Of a stretch of DNA of 64,000 bases, positions 2,287 to 55,460 are shown piece after piece. A program made the translations under genes and the position numbers. Below the pieces are notes generated by a model, which saw only the letters and a program-made list of their open reading frames with translations, searched no databases and was not told where the DNA came from. Within the stretch, counting starts at the first letter, position 1; every line of letters begins with the position of its first letter. The stretch is from Octopus vulgaris (taxonomy: Eukaryota). The DNA is taken from the NCBI GenBank assembly GCA_951406725.2, contig OX597815.1, positions 21,080,001 through 21,144,000 on the forward strand, read 5' to 3'.

Positions 2287-2371
<85 letters not shown>

Positions 2372-2820
2372 GAGGCGCAATGGCCCAGTGGTTAGGGCAG
2401 CGGACTCGCGGTTGTAGGATCGCGGTTCCGATTCCCAGACCGGGCCTTGTGAGTGTTTATTGAGCGAAAACAACCAAAGCTCCACGAAACTCCGGCAGGG
2501 GGTAGTGGCGATCCCTGCTGTACTCTTTCGCTACAATTTTCTCTCACTCTTTCTTCTGTCGGCCTGCTCGCTTAGCCAACGGGGTGGCGTCATTTGAAGG
2601 CTAAAACAATGCGAAGCGCATTGTGACCAGCGATGTGTAGCAACATCTGATAGCCTCGTCGGTCATGTGATCATGTGTGATATATACATATATATGTGTG
2701 TGTGACTTTGTGTTTTTTGGTTCTCACCACCACCACCAAAGCTTGACAACCGGTGTTGGTATGTTTAAGTCCCTGTAAACCAGCGGTTCGGCAAAAGAAA
2801 CCGATCGAATAAGTACCAAT
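2101..2820 (+). mobile_element. tRNA-headed CORE-like SINE (family B) with internal microsatellite, interrupted by a nested SINE
   Basis: Head gcgtggatgtgtg...ggttcagt, CORE-like ccttaggcaagt, then (CA)n/(TG)n. The 3' part gcttgacaaccggtgttgg...aataagtac resumes after 2700. Matches the copy at 58656-59014. Confidence 0.75.
2371..2680 (+). mobile_element. tRNA-derived SINE (family C) nested in the family B microsatellite
   Basis: A-box-like tggcccagtggttagg, B-box-like ggttccgattccc, a distinct body, and a short repeated tail catgtgatcatgtg. Confidence 0.7.
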
Positions 2821-3134: not shown

Positions 3135-3165
3135 GATTCTGTTTCCAATATCTGTAGAAACCCAA

Positions 3166-3732
3166 GGCGACGAGCTGGCAGAAACGTTAGCATGCCGGGC
3201 GAAATGCTTAGCGGTATTTCGTCTGCCGTTACGTTCTGAGTTCAAATTCTGCCGAGGTCGACTTTGCCCTTCATCCTTTCAGGGTCGATAAATTAAGTAC
3301 CAGTTACGCACAGAGGTCGATGTAATCGACTTAATCCGTTTGTCTGTCCTTGTTTGTCCTCTCTGTGTTTAGCCCCTTGTGGGTAGTAAAGAAATATGTA
3401 TTTTATCTACCGTTACGTTCTGAGTTTGCCTTTCATCCATTCGGGGTCGATAAATTAAGTACCAGTTACGCACTGGTGTTCGATGTAATCGACTTAATCC
3501 CTTTTATCTGGCCTTTTTGTCCCCTCTATGTTTAGCCCCTTGTGGGCAATAAAGAAATAAGAAACGTTAGCACGCCAGGCGAAATGCTTAGCGGCATTTC
3601 GTCTGCATTTACGACTTCTCCTTTCATCCTTTCGAGGTCGATAAATTAAGTACCAGTTGCGTACTGGGGCCGATCTAATCGACTGGCCCACTCCCCAAAA
3701 ATTCTGGGCCTTGTACCTATAGTAGAAAAGAA
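3166..3732 (+). mobile_element. Head-to-tail trimer of SINE family A (Meta-domain-like core)
   Basis: Three successive units (3166-3396, 3397-3560, 3561-3732), each with the core cctt(t)catcc...ggtcgataaattaagtaccag. The first two end in ...aaagaaata; the third has an alternative tail. Confidence 0.85.
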
Positions 3733-7872: not shown

Positions 7873-8993
7873 GTTTGATCCTTTTTGATTGATGTGTGTG
7901 TGTCTGTGTCTGTGTATACCGTTTGGTACTAATACTACTTCTGTCACTAATAATTGATTTTTTTAAAACATAAGCCTGCTGGCTATTTGCGACACTAGCT
8001 CCTGAAAAGATACTGATATTCTATGTATACTGTAGCAGCCAGATTTGACTGATATGCGGTCACACGGTGCTTTCCACTGTGGGTTCCAGCAGAACAAAAT
8101 CACGTGCTATGGGAATTCCGGCACTCAGGGCGGACGAATTTTATCTGTTACGACCTGTGTGTGAGCTTTTTATGCACAAGCACCGTTGAGTATCTCTCAA
8201 GGCTAATAACGCAGTATTCGGTGTTCTAACAAGGCATTCGTGTTTAGTTGGATATAAAGAATGCCAATTGATATTTATTCTTTTATTCTTTTACTTGTTT
8301 CAGTCATTTGATTGTGGCCATACTGTTTGTGTGTGTATGTTTATGTATGTGTGTGCATGTGTGTGTATGTGTGTTTGTGTGTGCATACGTGTTAGTGAGT
8401 ACACGTAAGCACTTCAATATGGCTATTATTTGTAATATAAATATGTACATATGCACTCACGAACACACGCATGCGCACACATGCATACACACACACATAC
8501 TCACACACACACATACACACACACACGGATACGCATACAGTATCATAGGATTTTATCCCGCTATCAAAAATAAACGAAGTGATTATACTACATGATTTTA
8601 TCTCCCCAAGCAGAGAAAACGGGATCGGTTCGAATTGTTTCTAGACTTCTTAGATCCTCATTATCCCCACTACCAAAAAGTTTAGAAACTAGTCGAATCG
8701 ATTCCACTGGGAGAAAAACTTGTGACGAAACTACCATTGTATGCTTTTCAAAAAGCACGGTATACCTTACATTACACTTCAAATAAATTGCTTTCAAATC
8801 TTGGCAGAAGGCCCCTAATTTTGGGGGAAGAGGTAAATTTATTACAGCGACTCAAGAACTCAACTGGTACTTATTTTGTCGACCCCGAAAGAATGAAAGC
8901 CAATGTCGATCTCGGTGGAATTTTAACTCAGTTGATAAAGGACAAATGCCTTAGTTCACATTATGTATTAACACTATCATAGTAATATATAAA

Positions 8994-9262
8994 GGTGGCG
9001 AGCTGGCAGAAACGTCAGCACGCCGGGAGAAATGCTTATCGGTATTTCGTCTGCCGTTACGTTCTGAGTTCAAATTCCGCCGAGGTCGACTTTGCCTTTC
9101 ATCTTTTCGTGGTCGATTAAATAAGTACCAGTTACGCACTGGGGACGATATAATCGACTTAATCCGTTTGTCTGTCCTTGTTTGTCCCCTCTGTGTTTAG
9201 CCCCTTGTGGGTAGTAAAGAAATAGGTATTTCGTCTGCCGCTACGTTCTGAGTTCAAATTCC
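8994..9262 (+). mobile_element. SINE family A, full unit plus partial internal re-entry
   Basis: Full unit to aaagaaata (9224), followed directly by ggtatttcgtctgccgctacgttctgagttcaaattcc, a repeat of its own internal sequence. A degenerate inverted copy lies at about 8785-8955. Confidence 0.85.
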
Positions 9263-10489
9263 ACACTTATTGGTTCAGTGTTATTTTACAACCTAGTTTT
9301 GTCTTTGTGAAGCTCTTCCCTAGTTCCTTAGGGACAGCAAATGACAAATGTCATACTTGAAAATGGGGTGCAATCAGTATGATATTTGTCATCTGCTGGG
9401 TTTGACCTTGCCTGAGAAGCAATACAAAGATATGCCGTCGGTCTCGACGATGAGTATTCAGTGAATTCCTACTCGGGAAATTAACATATAGGTGGTTGAG
9501 TATTCTGTCTGAGAGAAAGAGTGATGAGTCGACCCCCAGTATTAAACTTATTGATCAACCGCAGTACTTGACTTGTACTTTAATGATCCCGGGATGCTGA
9601 AAAGCAAAAATTGACCTGAGAAGGATTTGAACTCTGTGCGTAAAGAACCTTTAAGCGTTTTTCCGACTCTAACAATTCAGCCACAGATTATTTGGTTCCA
9701 TATAGTTGTTTCTGATGTAGCCACTTGACCAGCAGTTTGGAGGAGAGGATGTTGGTCGATACCATTGATTCTAGAGCTATTAGGCAAGTACTTTATTTCA
9801 ATGTCACCGGATGGATAAAAGGCAATGTCGTCCTCCGCGGGATTTGAAATCAGAACTCAAAGAAAGAAGGCTTTTTTCTCTTTTCCGACGCTTTAACGAT
9901 TTACCTCTTCGTATTTTCTATGGGGACAAAACGATAACTAAAAGTTATATAATAGCAAATAATGTTAATATTACCTCCCTTGGCTGTTTCTTATGTTTGT
10001 TCTACTCGTATTTTTTGAGTACCTATTGTCGTTCAGTTATGAGATCTGAATTGTTTGTATTTATCACTGTTTCTGTCGTTTGTTTTACTGGACATCATTG
10101 CATGTTACAATATTTTCACATTTATTTTCGGTGGATGTAAATTTTTCTTGTTTGAAAATTATTTGCTTTTTGTATGTTGCTTTTATTGCTTTATACGGTT
10201 CTCTGAAATTTTTCCAATATATTTGTCTGGTATCCTTATATCTCTTTTAGATGTTTGCATCAAAATACAATACACATAAACACAATTATTTTCCCAAAGA
10301 CTGTGTATAAAATGGCATTAACGTTTTAAAAAGTAACGTCTCGCTGTGAAATAATATAGAAACATATTCACCTAATATTTATTTAATCCTTTCGGGTTTC
10401 TATTTACTCATATTTGTTTTTCATTTTTATCTATTTGTTTTAGCATAGATTATAGTCACTTTTTTGTTACAAACCATTCCTAAAGTTAA

Positions 10490-10721
10490 GGCGGCGAGCT
10501 GGCAGAAGCGTTAGCACGCCGGGCGAAATGCTTAGCAGTATTTCGTCTGCCGTTACGTTCTGAGTTCAAATTTCGCCGAGGTCGACTTTGCCTTTCATCC
10601 TTTCGGGGTCGATAATTTAAGTACCAGTTATGCACTGGGGTCGATGTAATCGGCTTAATCCCTTTGTCTGTCCTTGTTTGTCCCCTCTATGTTTAGCCCC
10701 TTGTGGGCAATAAAGAAATAA
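10490..10721 (+). mobile_element. SINE family A full-length monomer with probable target-site duplication
   Basis: ggcggcgagctggcagaagcg...ttgtgggcaataaagaaataa, flanked by accattcctaaag (10473-10485) and accattactaaag (10725-10737). Confidence 0.88.
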
Positions 10722-11199
10722 AACACCATTACTAAAGATTTAATATTTGATACTCTTAGCATATCAACTCCAAAATTAGGGCAGCTGATTAGTTTTCAAA
10801 CACTATTTGTATTGTTTGTTGTATAGCTAGTGATAAATTTGTCTGGTTTTGCTTATTATAATTTTTCATAAATTGTTGGAAAAGCGGGGCAATTCGCATG
10901 ACATTTGAAGGCCCTTCCAAAGAGACTAAGATCGATGTGTATGATTGAAGCGCAGCCTTAACATCTAAATGTCAACATCTACCAGAAAAAGTGTTTGGAA
11001 ACTGTTTAGTCCGAATAGTAAGACTACCTGGGTATCAGATGGTGTTAAAACGGATGTCATGCTATATACTTGCCACTCAGCCGCCATGTTTTGCACTGAT
11101 TTTATTTGATATTAGAGACTCATAGTCGGCAACCAGTGAAAACGTGTTTAATACTCAAACATCTATAATATTTGTAATTTGTGTTGTTCATGTTTTTAT

Positions 11200-19941: not shown

Positions 19942-20012
19942 TGTTTCTTTATTAGCCACACAGGGCTGCACACAGATAGAACAAATTACAAGGTAGAGCT
20001 TTTCTTTTGAAG

Positions 20013-20048
<36 letters not shown>

Positions 20049-20128
20049 AAGGGGGAGTTTCGATCAAAAGGGATCGTAAAAGGAGAGAAAGAGGACAAAA
20101 AAAGGGGGTTAAAAAAAAGGGGGAGAGG

Positions 20129-20161
<33 letters not shown>

Positions 20162-22072
20162 CAATAGGGATCGTTATCACAGAAATGTCAATATGAAGTG
20201 TAAAGGGGAGGACAGGTGAGGTTTACCCGTGGAAAGAAAAGCCTACGGAAAAGACCACGGTAACCTCGGTCAATGAAGTCACATTTTATATTTCTTTTTT
20301 TTTTTTTTGCAAATAAGCAACTCTCTGTTTTCGATTTCTGGGTTCATAGGACTATGCTCAAGGTGGCTTCGTCATTCATACGTGCCATTCTTGCTACATT
20401 CACCCATCTTTTTTAAAACATTCGCTAGACAAAACTTGCCTCTCTACTCTCACTTTCCTTTTCAAGTGGTACTTGAAGAAGTTGATGAGTGATTGACCAG
20501 AGAGGAAAGTGTTTGTCTCCAATCCTTTCAGACGCGTCCACCAGATACATTCTTTCGCCATAGCCACCAGGATGATGAAAATAGCTCTTCCTTCCCGTTT
20601 GAAGGAAGGAGGCGTGACAATATTGACGATAGACTCAGCTGATAAACCGACTCGTCCCACACGTGACAGCAGTTGTTCGACATAAGCCCACAGGTCGGAA
20701 ATTGTTGGACACTGAACGAGTGCGTGCAGAACGGTTTCGTCGCTCTGACCGCATCTCGGGCAGGTCGGCCCCGTGTTTCTCGAGCCGTGTCTGTAGAGCT
20801 TATCCCGAACGGGTAGCGCTTCTCGGTAGCACTGCCAGGCCAGGGATCTCTGGAAGTTGTCCATGGGCCCTGGCCCGAAAGTCGTCCTGAACAGGCGGGT
20901 CAGGTACTCCTCGTCGACGTCCAGGTTCGCCCCGAGCTCGTCGTCGTACCTCCCCTCCACTAAACCCCTATAGAATGCTTTGGTTGTGTTGAAGTCACTT
21001 AAGGTCGACCCAGGACGGCAGAGTTGCTTGAGAGCAACGCGACACTCGCGGTGCCATTCGCCCTTCCTCGGCCTCTTTTTGATCCACGACTGCAGTTCGG
21101 TCATGGAGACGAGCTGCGGGAAAGCGTGCCTCACAAACGGCGACCACACCTGTTCACCGTCGTCTACATAGAGCCAGAGATGCCGCAGTCTCAGCGCGTG
21201 TCTGCGCATCATCAACCACGGCATGCCCAGCCCTCCTTTTAACGGGTGTTGACAGCAAATGGATCGCCTGACCATCGGGACGCATCCTTTCCACAAGAAG
21301 CGAAAGAGGATGCGTTGTAGTTTGGTGATGGTAGGGTCGGGACAAGGTACGACGGTCAGGCGGTAGTAGATGACGGACGCGATGTACGTGTTCGCCACCT
21401 CCGCTCGACCTTTTAGGGACAGTTTCCTCTCGGCCCATTGCCGGGCGAGAGTGACCACCCTACTCGTTATCTCGTTCCAGTTCTTCTCCACTTGGAGGTC
21501 CGGACCAAACCAGACCCCGAGCAACTCAACCGGGCCGTCGGTCCAGCGTCCCACGACGGAGGCGCTGGTGGACGGCATGGGCTTGCTTCTCCAGGTGCCT
21601 AGTCGCAAGCCCACTGACTTTTCCCGGTTGATTTTCGCTCCTGTCACCGCTTCGTAGTTTTTCAGTGTCTCGCCGACCAGCTCGATGTGCTCGTGGCTAG
21701 ACACTATGACGGTGACGTCGTCCGCGTATGCAGACACGCTCGTCCCGCATCCCAATTCTCGCGGGATGCCCTTAGAGTCGCCAGCTTCCGCAGTAGTGGC
21801 TCAAGAGTCAATACGTATAGAAGCGCCGAGAGGGGGCATCCCTGACGGACCGAACGTGCAATGTTGAAAGGTCTCGATAGATGTCCATTTACGCGAATTA
21901 CCGAACGGATGCCTCTGTACAAGGCAGCTATCCATCCGCGGAAAACGGGACCGAAACCAGCCGCTCTCAGGACTGCCCCCAAGTATCGATGGTCTACCCT
22001 ATCAAAGGCTTTCGATTGATCCAAGTTGATCAGGGCCCCACCCATGCCAGGTTCGTTAACTACCCTGTCTAT

Positions 22073-31046: not shown

Positions 31047-32098
31047 AGGAAGTAAATAGACACGTTTCATTTTCAAAATCTTTTATTTAATACGCAAAGC
31101 GAACAATTGAAATGTAATCGATCGGTAGGACTACATACTTTAGTATTTAGTTGTCATCTCCTTTACAGATTTTAATTAAGAAACTCTTTTTGGCATTGAA
31201 CTGATGAGCTTTGTGGTTGTATCTTGTGGAATTTCTGCCCACTTTTCAAACAGCAATCGAAACAATTCATCTTTAGATTTAAGTTTCTGTCGAGTTTTTC
31301 GTATAGCTCTATCTAGTATGCTCCAAAGATTTTCAATTGGGTTCATGTCAGGAGATTGGCTCGGCTAAGGAAGCTTTTTGATCTCATATTCAGTCAGCCA
31401 TTGTTGATTCCTTTGATTCCTTTTCGCTGTGTGGCATTGCACTCATCGAATAATAAATAAAAACTCATTCTTCGTTATCTTATCGTGTGAATACATCGGA
31501 AGTAGTCCTTGCTTAAGTATTTCGATGTATTTTTCAGAGCTTATGGTTCCAACGCATTCGATCAGCTCAGAACGACCATTGTTGGTGCAGCTCCCCATAC
31601 CATTACAGAAATATCACCGTGTTTCACCGATGGCTGGAGTCGTTTCAAATCAAATCCTTGATTGGGAAGCCTCCAGGCCCAAACATGTCCACTGTCTGAA
31701 AATAATGCAAACCTGGATTCATCATTCTATCCCAAAATGAACTGGAGTTTTCTGACATCTCCTTAGCCCATTTCTTTCTTTTCATGATATTAATTGGTTG
31801 AAGGAGAGGTTTTCTTCTAGCTGCTCGCCCATAATACCCAAGCTTATGCAGATACGTTACACACGTGCTTGGACTAACTTCTAGCTGTTTTGCAATGTCA
31901 AAAGCCTTCGAATGGGGTTCGTTTTCCACAATTCTCTTCAAACAGCGAAGCTTCCTTTCCGAGGGCCCAGGTCGGCCGGGACGAGAATCTGTTGATTCTT
32001 TTCTTTGGCTTTTGAATTGCACTATAATTCTATCAGCAGTAGCAAGGGGAATTTGAAGATTTTCGGCAATTGTTCGCTGGTTAAGACCTCAGATTGCC
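31047..32098 (-). mobile_element. Decayed Tc1-family DNA transposon
   Basis: ORF 31645-32022 has RPGRP, an HTH and AARRKPLL. A downstream minus frame gives *PSQSPDMNPIENLWSIL (Tc1 catalytic-domain motif) at about 31315-31370. Stops and frameshifts present. Confidence 0.9.
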
Positions 32099-42115: not shown

Positions 42116-42616
42116 TATTATTGCTGCCTAGATTTTCTACATTGGCGTAAAGTTACATATATAAAAGGTAGTCATGGGAATTTAACCAGTGCATAGCTGG
42201 TAATTACAAATGTGCTACATCAAGTCTTGTGTAAATCAGTAAAACTAAATACTGTAAATATTGTCAGACGCTCGACCTTTCTGCCATGCCATCTCCGTGG
42301 TTTTAAAAAGTGTTGAGCAAAAAGTGTTGAGTTTGTTTCGGTTCTTCAACTACTAATTTCAAATTCTATCAAGGTTGATTTTCGCCTTTGGGTCGATAAA
42401 ATAAGAACCAGTTAAGCCGAAGTAATCGATTAACCCCTTCCCTTCGACTAACCTTGTGCCTACAGTCTCGAAGAATCGTTAGAGAGTCGAACGAAATACA
42501 TAGCAGCATTTTGTTCGTCTTTAGGTTCTTAGCTCAATTTCCGCCGAGGTCGGCTTTGCCTTTCATTCTTTTGAGATCGATAAAATTAGTACTGGTTATG
42601 TCCTGGAATAGAAAGG

Positions 42617-44989: not shown

Positions 44990-45345
44990 ATTCTAAACCT
45001 CATTATTTATTCCAATTTCGGGGTGGATAAAATAAGTACCAATTGAGCACTGGGATCGATGTAATCGACTTCCCCACTCCTCAAAATTGCTGGCGTTGTG
45101 TCAACATAATGGATTATTATAATCAAAGCGATGAGCCGGCAGAAACATTAGCACGCCGGACAACATGCTTTTTAGCATTTCTTCCGAGTTTAACGTTCTA
45201 AGATCAAATACTGTCGCGGTCAGCTTTGCTGTTCATCCTTTCGGGGTCGATAACATAAAGTACCACTCAAATACTGGGTTCGATGTCACTGACTAACAAC
45301 CCACCTCAAAATGTCAGTCCTTGTTCATATAGTAAAGAGATTATT
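44990..45345 (+). mobile_element. Tandem of diverged SINE family A units
   Basis: Two cores (ggggtggataaaataagtacc and catcctttcggggtcgataacataagtacc) with the alternative tail. Similar decayed arrays at about 42340-42845 and 9500-9900. Confidence 0.7.
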
Positions 45346-54529: not shown

Positions 54530-55460
54530 CATCAAAGCAGTTTATCATGGAACAATAACCTCCCACTTTTAAGGGTATGCGTTTGTAATCCAGGAAGAGG
54601 AAATATCAATCAAGTACTTAATGCACAAAAGGGACAGAGATGCTGGAAAAGCAGTAAAATGTGATAACTGCTGCAGACTGTGTGGAGTTAACACCGAAGA
54701 TATTACCCACACCATAAGCAGTCGTCCGAAAAAGTCATTACGTTATAATCTACCAATGAGACATGATGTTGTAGCTAAAACACTCTATAATGAAATCTGT
54801 CGGAAGGATAACCCCGAGGACAAAGAAATAAGAACCCACAGTATGGTTGAAGCTATAGAAACTCGTAATAAAAGAGAGTACTGGTGGAATGTCCTAGTGA
54901 AGATCTCAATAAAATGTAAGCACAACAGACCTGATATAATGATTTAGGGTAAGGAAACTGTGTACAGTTGTGGAAATTACCTGCCCTGCGGATGTTAACA
55001 TAAAGCTAAAGATCAGTGAAAGAGAAAATACCTGCGCTGAACTACTGAGAAATCTGCAGTTACTCTATCCACATTACAAGTTCAGGTGTATACCTGTAAT
55101 TATTGGGGCCCTGAGATATGTAACACACTGCCTGAGACATTAGGCATCTCAAAACGAGAAAGGAGAAAGCTAATTCGAAGACTACAGATCCAATCCATCA
55201 TTGGAATTGTAAAAATCTGTAAAACTTTCCAGAAGTTTATCATTTAAATATATATGAGTATGTCTAGATATGCAACTATATGTATGAGAATACATACATA
55301 CATAAAGCAAAACATACAAATCTGCACATGTACATACATGCATACATTCAAACAAAAATACTCTGTTGGTTGATGTTGAAATTCCACTAAAGGAACCTTG
55401 AATCTAGGTTAGAAACCGGCCCTTTCTCTATTAGCAAAAACTGTTGAAATAAAAATGAAC
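54530..55460 (+). mobile_element. 3' fragment of an R4/Dong-like non-LTR retrotransposon (restriction-like endonuclease)
   Basis: ORF 54621-54947 has the CRLCG...EDITH knuckle, RHD and HNRPDI. It continues past a stop with VVEITCP...IPVIIGAL. AATAAA near 55448. Confidence 0.85.

What the first reader, a model, noticed from the sequence alone, without database searches (positions are those of the whole stretch)
3166..3732. SINE A multimers resume at recurring internal positions: possible self-targeting (homing) or concatemeric intermediate
Seen: after the tail ...gggtagtaaagaaata the sequence resumes at the same internal point (gtattt..tct.ccg.tacgttctgagt) at both 3397 and 9225. After the variant tail ...gggcaataaagaaataa it resumes at gaaacgttagcacgcc (3561). 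The outermost unit carries a different tail, as if a host copy had been split. The 9219-9232 junction GAAATA-GG-TATTTC is itself a hairpin, and the re-entry point is the 3' arm of the SINE's internal cgaaatgc..gtatttcg hairpin. Established: several Tx1-clade families are target-sequence specific. Inference: the partner endonuclease nicks existing SINE copies at fixed sites with homology-resolved 5' junctions, or the RNA is multimeric or circular.
Basis: partly seen in the sequence, partly recalled or inferred. Interest (0 to 1): 0.72.

Follow-up and report, generated by a model that had tools for sequence, protein, structure and literature searches.

The report
Inherited three-unit octopus SINE
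Three copies of a short jumping element sit fused head-to-tail, the second and third restarting at fixed points inside the head; the same joints recur at other loci and in a second species, most likely because a fused master was copied as one piece rather than because the element homes into itself.

Summary
3165-3732 is three fused units of a 232-nt SINE whose named relatives are in Octopus bimaculoides. Tail A resumes at unit position 49 (3397 and 9225), tail B at position 16 (3560), and tail C ends the element. Tails A/B match the 3' end of an L1/Tx1-type LINE at 19944-19993, which supports the Tx1-partner lead.

The joints recur outside the window. Tail B to 16 is the best-supported listed tail joint in contigs of two species labels; tail to 49 shows at two further read loci.

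The units of one multimer are not copies of one molecule: they differ at four subfamily sites and share no private changes, so a rolling circle is excluded here. All units are equally young (3-6% diverged, against 12-28% for 11 other segments), and no half-host-plus-duplication joint was among the 15 listed. Best reading (0.6): composite master copies with inherited joints, reshuffled by recombination.

Recurrent structure-guided joining or homing is not excluded (about 0.28). A-49-A and B-16-B forms exist, and position 49 lies exactly at a hairpin loop edge. No genome was available, so the decisive genome-wide table was not made.

The parts
3165..3396 (+). Unit 1: full head, body and tail A (unit positions 1-232)
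3397..3559 (+). Unit 2: starts at unit position 49, has a private 22-nt deletion, ends in tail B
3560..3732 (+). Unit 3: starts at unit position 16, has a private 27-nt deletion, C-type body letters and tail C (3685-3732)
3198..3223 (+). Head hairpin (unit 34-59, loop 45-48); re-entry position 49 is the first base of its 3' arm
8993..9224 (+). Second locus, full unit with tail A
9225..9262 (+). Second locus, unit positions 49-86, then unrelated flank; weak junction hairpin at 9219-9232
10489..10720 (+). Stand-alone full unit with tail B, flanked by a roughly 15-bp target-site duplication (about 10471-10488 and 10721-10740)
19944..22070 (-). 5'-truncated L1/Tx1-type LINE (RVT_1 and zf-RVT, frameshifted) lying in a (CTAT)n microsatellite; its last 50 nt (19944-19993) match tails A/B and carry no poly(A)
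42385..42615 (+). Old tandem of the same family: a 3'-shortened tail C followed by a unit starting at about position 11
45016..45345 (+). Old tandem: tail C plus an ATT-repeat stretch followed by a full-head unit

Best explanation
The element is three fused SINE units (head-A, 49-B, 16-C) that were likely copied as one piece from a composite master, so the fixed re-entry points are likely inherited joints, not fresh insertions. Shown: the structure, the exact registers, the recurrence of the joints elsewhere, and the match of tails A/B to an L1/Tx1-type LINE end. Inferred: each joint arose once or a few times during reverse transcription (a 5'-truncated copy landing at an older copy's tail, a template jump, or an insertion into a head whose left part was then not transcribed). 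Inferred: RNA polymerase III starting at the first head read through the tails, as the unit has no run of four T, and made a longer master RNA. Inferred: recombination or template switching between the near-identical bodies, and priming at an inner tail, gave the other forms (head-B alone, A-49-A, B-16-B).
For: (1) Tail type and site are paired in young copies. A goes to 49 in 2 of 2 window copies and at one read locus. B goes to 16 in the window and in the top listed tail joints: 10720>10504 (5 contigs in X15, 15 in X9), 10719>10504 (6) and 10721>10509 (11). None of the 15 listed joints leaves the tail-A end. (2) Of the 5 B-to-head joints whose register can be read (tables 5 and 5c), 4 keep the same 16-nt register and 1 has a 3-nt deletion (read by hand). 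(3) The joint is in contigs of two species labels, organism A (X15) and organism E (X9). (4) Over unit positions 1-167 the five multimer units and the stand-alone copy are 2.9-5.6% from the majority of the three full copies; the 11 other family segments tested are 11.7-27.8%. There is no gradient between unit 1 and units 2+3 (Fisher p=0.81). (5) No joint from positions 16-70 back to a head is among the 15 listed. (6) The majority unit has no T4 run. (7) The LINE has the tail letters TAAT, one change from both A and B, and TAAT or non-B tails occur at both 49 (X23) and about 17 (P0008). This fits one ancestral tail at both joints that later split into A and B. (8) Clam multimers with a full first head and later units cut at the same head position are published (PMC11481361, section 15).
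Against: The unit after a joint varies: A-49-A at one X23 locus (loose ends at 9159 and 9237), B-16-B in P0025 and probably P0011, a tail to about 17 followed by a C unit in P0036. One fixed trimer cannot explain these without recombination. A fixed register is also what targeted insertion would give, since neither this LINE copy nor the stand-alone B copy has a variable poly(A). An old C tail resumes at about position 11, a separate joint close to 16. Position 49 is exactly at a loop edge; by a post-hoc count 29 of 170 positions are in or next to a predicted loop. Only 15 of 1578 joints were shown, and B-to-49 forms would have been laid without a joint. The three full copies define the majority sequence, which lowers their own divergence. 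An outer duplication around 3165-3732 is not significant (0.11).
Confidence: 0.6

Rival explanations
1. Multimers are made again and again during reverse transcription. The RT stops, or the RNA is cut, at the edges of the head hairpins (16 and 49), and the RT jumps to the 3' end of another SINE RNA or joins an older copy's tail. For 49 the tail end GAAAUA could pair with positions 51-56 and hold the two ends together.
For: Position 49 is the first base after the loop of the strongest hairpin. Position 16 is the first loop base of a local hairpin. All tails are complete to their natural end. Downstream unit types vary. Template jumps and repeated 5' additions are discussed for SINEU (PMC4494074, passages).
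Against: It does not explain why A goes to 49 and B to 16 when both tails end in the same nine bases. The hairpin around 16 is not in the best fold of unit positions 1-170 or of the six-copy alignment. The junction hairpin is only -1.4 kcal/mol. In SINEU, repeated events gave joints scattered over 22 nt, unlike these.
Confidence: 0.18
2. Homing: a Tx1-type endonuclease nicks existing SINE heads at 16 or 49, the new copy is joined by its tail, and the 5' side is resolved by homology so that no seam is left.
For: Tails A/B match an L1/Tx1-type LINE end (scores 52 and 48 against shuffle maxima 39 and 28 in 500 shuffles; tail C 15). Tx1 families target other repeats, and SINEU-3 tandems arise by sequential insertion (PMC4494074, passages). 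Variable downstream units fit.
Against: It needs two unrelated target sequences, one per tail type. The stand-alone B copy is at a non-SINE site, and the LINE copy is in a (CTAT)n repeat. All three 'host' parts are young while the other segments are old. No unresolved host-left + duplication + head joint is among the 15 listed, whereas SINEU-3 tandems keep a duplication between units.
Confidence: 0.1
3. DNA-level tandem duplication or unequal crossing-over at each locus (a SINE-derived satellite in the making).
For: SINE-derived tandem repeats are known (PMC10702118, passages). The X23 loci look like shortened same-type repeats.
Against: Units 1 and 2 share no private changes and differ at 4 subfamily sites, and unit 3 has another tail. 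Both joints break exactly at the natural tail end. The same joints occur at unrelated loci.
Confidence: 0.07
4. The RNA is circular (positions 49-232 or 16-232) and is reverse-transcribed as a rolling circle.
For: Same-type repeats A-49-A and B-16-B exist. The B-16 joint is present in contigs of a run guessed to be RNA (X15).
Against: It cannot give A-49-B-16-C or a full first head. Contigs cannot show circularity, and X15 may hold DNA or read-through transcripts of genomic multimers.
Confidence: 0.05

Closest known systems
Direct SINE multimers of the blood clam S. broughtonii, type TSD1-(SINE)n-TSD1 (PMC11481361; section 15 and passages read)
   Same: Full head in the first unit, later units cut at the same head position, a different 3' end on the last unit, in a mollusc.
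   Different: There the inner tails are truncated versions of one tail. Here the inner tails are complete LINE-derived tails (A, B) unrelated to the last tail (C), and there are two re-entry points.
Complex (dimeric or trimeric) SINEs as defined in SINEBase, e.g. Alu; Dip/B1 multimers (PMC3531059 and PMC10702118; passages)
   Same: Several SINE units fused and, on the best reading, amplified together.
   Different: The published definition speaks of complete or almost complete units; here units 2 and 3 lack part of the head (unit 2 lacks the presumed A box). Amplification as one unit was not counted genome-wide.
SINEU-3 with Tx1-Mar in crocodilians (PMC4494074; passages)
   Same: A SINE linked to Tx1-type LINEs, with tandem copies at fixed sites.
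   Different: SINEU-3 targets another transposon and its tandems keep a duplication between units. Here the joint is to the SINE's own head and has no duplication.
Octopus tRNA-derived SINEs of Ohshima and Okada 1994 (seen only as a reference entry; the family name OK is recalled)
   Same: Short retroposons of octopus; this family may be one of them.
   Different: No sequence could be seen, so identity with OK, OR1 or OR2, and whether a published consensus already holds a joint, are untested.

Membership tests
SINE | Short, interspersed, many copies | tested here: met
   21 BLAST segments in 64 kb; 35,954 and 359,518 contigs laid in X15 and X9
SINE | Head at least 60% identical to a tRNA, 5S or 7SL RNA | tested here: inconclusive
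   No ARAGORN hit and no Rfam hit at gathering score or at E<=10. A-box-like (about 8-19) and B-box-like (about 75-86) motifs are seen by eye, spaced wider than in tRNA.
SINE | 3' tail shared with a partner LINE | tested here: met
   Tails A/B against the LINE end at 19944-19993: 38 of 47 aligned letters for A, above all 500 shuffles; tail C has no such match
SINE | Target-site duplication | tested here: met
   Met for the copy at 10489 (p=0.0004); not significant for 3165-3732 (0.11) or 8993-9262 (0.59)
Complex (multimeric) SINE | The multimer is amplified as one unit from a master | tested here: inconclusive
   Same joints at several loci and in two species labels, equal age of units; no second full trimer was seen, and other combinations exist
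Target-specific Tx1 LINE/SINE pair (SINEU/Tx1-Mar type) | More than 20% of copies flanked by one target sequence (criterion in PMC4494074) | not testable with these tools
   No genome held; one B copy and one LINE copy lie outside SINE heads
Target-specific Tx1 LINE/SINE pair (SINEU/Tx1-Mar type) | Partner LINE belongs to the Tx1 clade | tested here: inconclusive
   RVT_1 plus zf-RVT; the only solved relatives are human L1 ORF2 chains; no tree was built, so L1/Tx1 group only
Target-specific Tx1 LINE/SINE pair (SINEU/Tx1-Mar type) | Duplication between sequentially inserted tandem copies | tested here: not met
   0 of 3 young window joints have a spacer or duplication; none among the B-16 joints with readable letters
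V/Vhc or Meta central-domain SINE superfamily | Sequence match to the published domain consensus | not testable with these tools
   A block of about 40 nt (unit about 90-135) is shared with another SINE family in 121 of 121 metagenome loci. Its length fits the 39-bp Vhc block, but the consensus is only in figures.

The most novel reading that the evidence does not exclude
The SINE builds its own multimers again and again: an L1/Tx1-type machinery joins complete tails to two fixed points in the SINE's own head, by nicking existing copies or by structure-guided template jumps. It would be a self-targeting retroposon that swaps LINE partners by stacking tails.
Probability: 0.27. Interest if true: 0.65.

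Novelty: new member of a known kind. Interest (0 to 1): 0.3.

Why it matters
On the best reading this is a catalogue fact: a very abundant octopus SINE family includes a composite that carries two unrelated kinds of tail, one from an L1/Tx1-type LINE. That matters for repeat annotation and as an example of tail exchange between SINE subfamilies. If the joints were made repeatedly, it would be a case of a SINE targeting its own head and a natural assay for structure-guided template jumping, testable on existing octopus assemblies.

Tried and rejected
No whole genome is held, so tail ends could not be tabulated. The A/B tail pattern found 0 matches in viral, metagenome and genome contigs. The central pattern found 0 in viral and genome contigs and 121 metagenome loci that share only the central block, so they say nothing on the joints. 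The two raw-read runs gave only 23 and 265 laid reads of 12.9 million each; they represent a few loci, give no frequencies and list no joints. No RNA holder was listed; X15 is only guessed to be RNA and held 0.17 of the words. Two word-based protein searches were blank; the third added 2 proteins. P0006 (a 15-fold repeat protein) was dropped as a chance match. P0039 (possible C tail to 16, p=0.49) and P0034 (p=0.047, read as a frameshifted head) were not counted. An age gradient from unit 1 to units 2+3 was tested and not found (p=0.81). No LINE end matching tail C was found in the window. The Atlas search named only RVT_1/zf-RVT clusters. Five of six look-ups of earlier findings were blank. 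No description of this trimer appeared in the listings of nine paper searches. The 1994 octopus SINE paper, Repbase, SINEBase and the O. vulgaris consensus library on Zenodo were not visible and may already hold it.

Full report
What is there. The family unit is 232 nt, with position 1 at 3165, 8993 and 10489. At 3165-3732 a full unit with tail A is followed by a unit that starts at position 49 and ends in tail B, then by a unit that starts at position 16 and ends in an unrelated tail C. At 8993-9262 a full tail-A unit is again followed by position 49, and stops at 86. At 10489-10720 a full tail-B unit stands alone with a roughly 15-bp target-site duplication. All four A/B tails end in the same nine bases. 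Tails A and B differ at unit positions 174, 201, 220 and 222, and each type is seen twice in the window. Spurious translations of the family are annotated in Octopus bimaculoides (3 of the 10 proteins looked up), so the window is inferred to come from an octopus. A tRNA origin of the head was not shown.

Partner. Apart from the four SINE tails, the only match to tail B in the window at the score cut-off used is 19944-19993 on the minus strand. This is the 3' end of a 5'-truncated LINE with RVT_1 and zf-RVT domains whose only solved relatives are L1 ORF2 chains. The match exceeds all 500 shuffles for A and B and not for C. The LINE copy lies in a (CTAT)n repeat and has no poly(A). So tails A/B likely come from an L1/Tx1-type LINE; placement in the Tx1 clade proper was not tested.

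Recurrence outside the window. Four public runs were laid on 8960-10780, which holds one A and one B unit. The raw-read runs were nearly empty (23 and 265 of 12.9 million reads). The contig sets were deep (35,954 and 359,518 laid), but only 15 of 1578 joints were shown. Among those 15, three rows join the tail-B end to positions 16-21 (32 contigs in X9, organism E; 5 in X15, organism A), one joins tail B to a full head (13 contigs) and one joins tail C to a full head (11 contigs). None leaves the tail-A end, and none runs from positions 16-70 back to a head. Read by hand, 4 of 5 B-to-head joints with readable register match the window's joint letter for letter in length. Depth over 9204-9264 is 0.66 (X15) and 0.56 (X9) of the bin before, against 0.34 if no tail A continued; contigs that fit two places inflate this, so it is an upper bound. 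Loose ends in X23 show two more loci with a tail joined to 49: one A tail followed by a shortened A-type unit, and one TAAT tail.

Translated copies. A full HMMER search with a minus-strand translation of the stand-alone copy gave 44 proteins, and a profile search added 2. After dropping P0006, 45 were read. A tail lies directly 5' of a unit near position 16 in P0025, P0008 and P0036 (shuffle p<=0.01) and probably P0011 (tblastn and eye only). It lies near 49-61 in P0043 (tblastn and eye only), and at or near a full head in P0002, P0013, P0029 (p<=0.043) and P0053 (eye). The unit after the 16 joint is B-tailed in P0025 and C-tailed in P0036. These are decayed copies read at codon resolution and biased to in-frame joints.

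Weighing. A rolling circle or a local duplication cannot make 3165-3732: units 1 and 2 share none of their private changes and differ at the four subfamily sites. Homing predicts hosts drawn from the resident copies, some unresolved 5' sides, and one target per partner. Instead, the three downstream units are 2.9-5.6% from the majority sequence, like the full units (3.7-5.6%), while the 11 other segments are 11.7-27.8%. No unresolved joint was listed, the two sites have unrelated sequences, and a B copy sits elsewhere. A composite master explains the pairing of A with 49 and B with 16, the equal ages and the sharing between species labels, and the unit has no T4 terminator to stop read-through. 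Against it, the unit after a joint varies, so recombination or several masters must be added. The fixed register does not separate the models because these tails have no variable poly(A). An old C tail resumes near position 11 (42467), and position 49 lies exactly at a loop edge. I put the inherited-joint model at 0.6, repeated template jumps at 0.18, homing at 0.10, DNA duplication at 0.07 and circular RNA at 0.05.

What is known. Complex SINEs and SINE multimers are established (PMC3531059, passages, supplements not readable; PMC10702118, passages). Clam multimers with one fixed head truncation are the closest architecture (PMC11481361, section 15 and passages). Tx1 targeting of other repeats and sequential SINEU-3 tandems are the precedent for the homing reading (PMC4494074, passages). 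O. vulgaris has 11.6% SINE and recently active L1-Tx1 families; the two of three text parts read describe no SINE structure (PMC13282606; supplement searched; Zenodo library not seen). PMC4824008 (passages, part 2 of 6, supplement search), PMC4758252 (passages, section 11 part 1, supplement search), PMC5804259 and PMC8967140 (passages) gave no sequence to name the family or its central block. Nine paper searches listed no description of this trimer; it may stand in Repbase, SINEBase or the 1994 octopus SINE paper, which I could not see.

Verdict. The structure is real and recurrent, and the partner-LINE tail is plausible. It is most likely a composite SINE lineage, a new member of a known kind. 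Interest 0.3; the self-targeting reading keeps about 0.27 and is directly testable on an assembly.

Noticed in passing
window 19944-22070 (-): A 5'-truncated L1/Tx1-type LINE sits between (CTAT)n runs on both sides, a candidate microsatellite-targeting family; it ends without poly(A).
   Followed up: partly
window 54540-55250 (+): Decayed LINE 3' part with CCHC-like and RHD...RPDI motifs, resembling a restriction-like endonuclease (R4/Dong-type, recalled); no Pfam hit.
   Followed up: partly
window 31648-32088 (-): Tc1/mariner transposase fragment (HTH_Tnp_Tc3_2, E=9e-12).
   Followed up: partly
L001-L121: A different SINE family in metagenome contigs shares only a block of about 40 nt (unit about 90-135) with this one, with other heads and several tails.
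   Followed up: partly
run X23, place 9098: Thirteen reads show a full SINE head directly after unit position 106: one nested insertion at a site other than 16 or 49.
   Followed up: no
run X9, joints 10615>9057 and 10615>10553: 26 contigs join unit position 127 back to position 65 with unknown letters between; possibly tandems of an older subfamily or a further fixed joint.
   Followed up: no
window 8792-8931 (-) and 8993-9262 (+): An old C-type fragment lies back-to-back with the tail-A copy, about 60 nt apart.
   Followed up: no
window 2371-2470 (+) and about 7644 (+): Another short repeat family starting GGAGGCGC directly after (TG)n runs.
   Followed up: no
P0005: An O. bimaculoides gene model of 706 aa begins with about 55 residues translated from an antisense copy of this SINE, fused to what looks like an aminopeptidase; probably an annotation artefact.
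   Followed up: no
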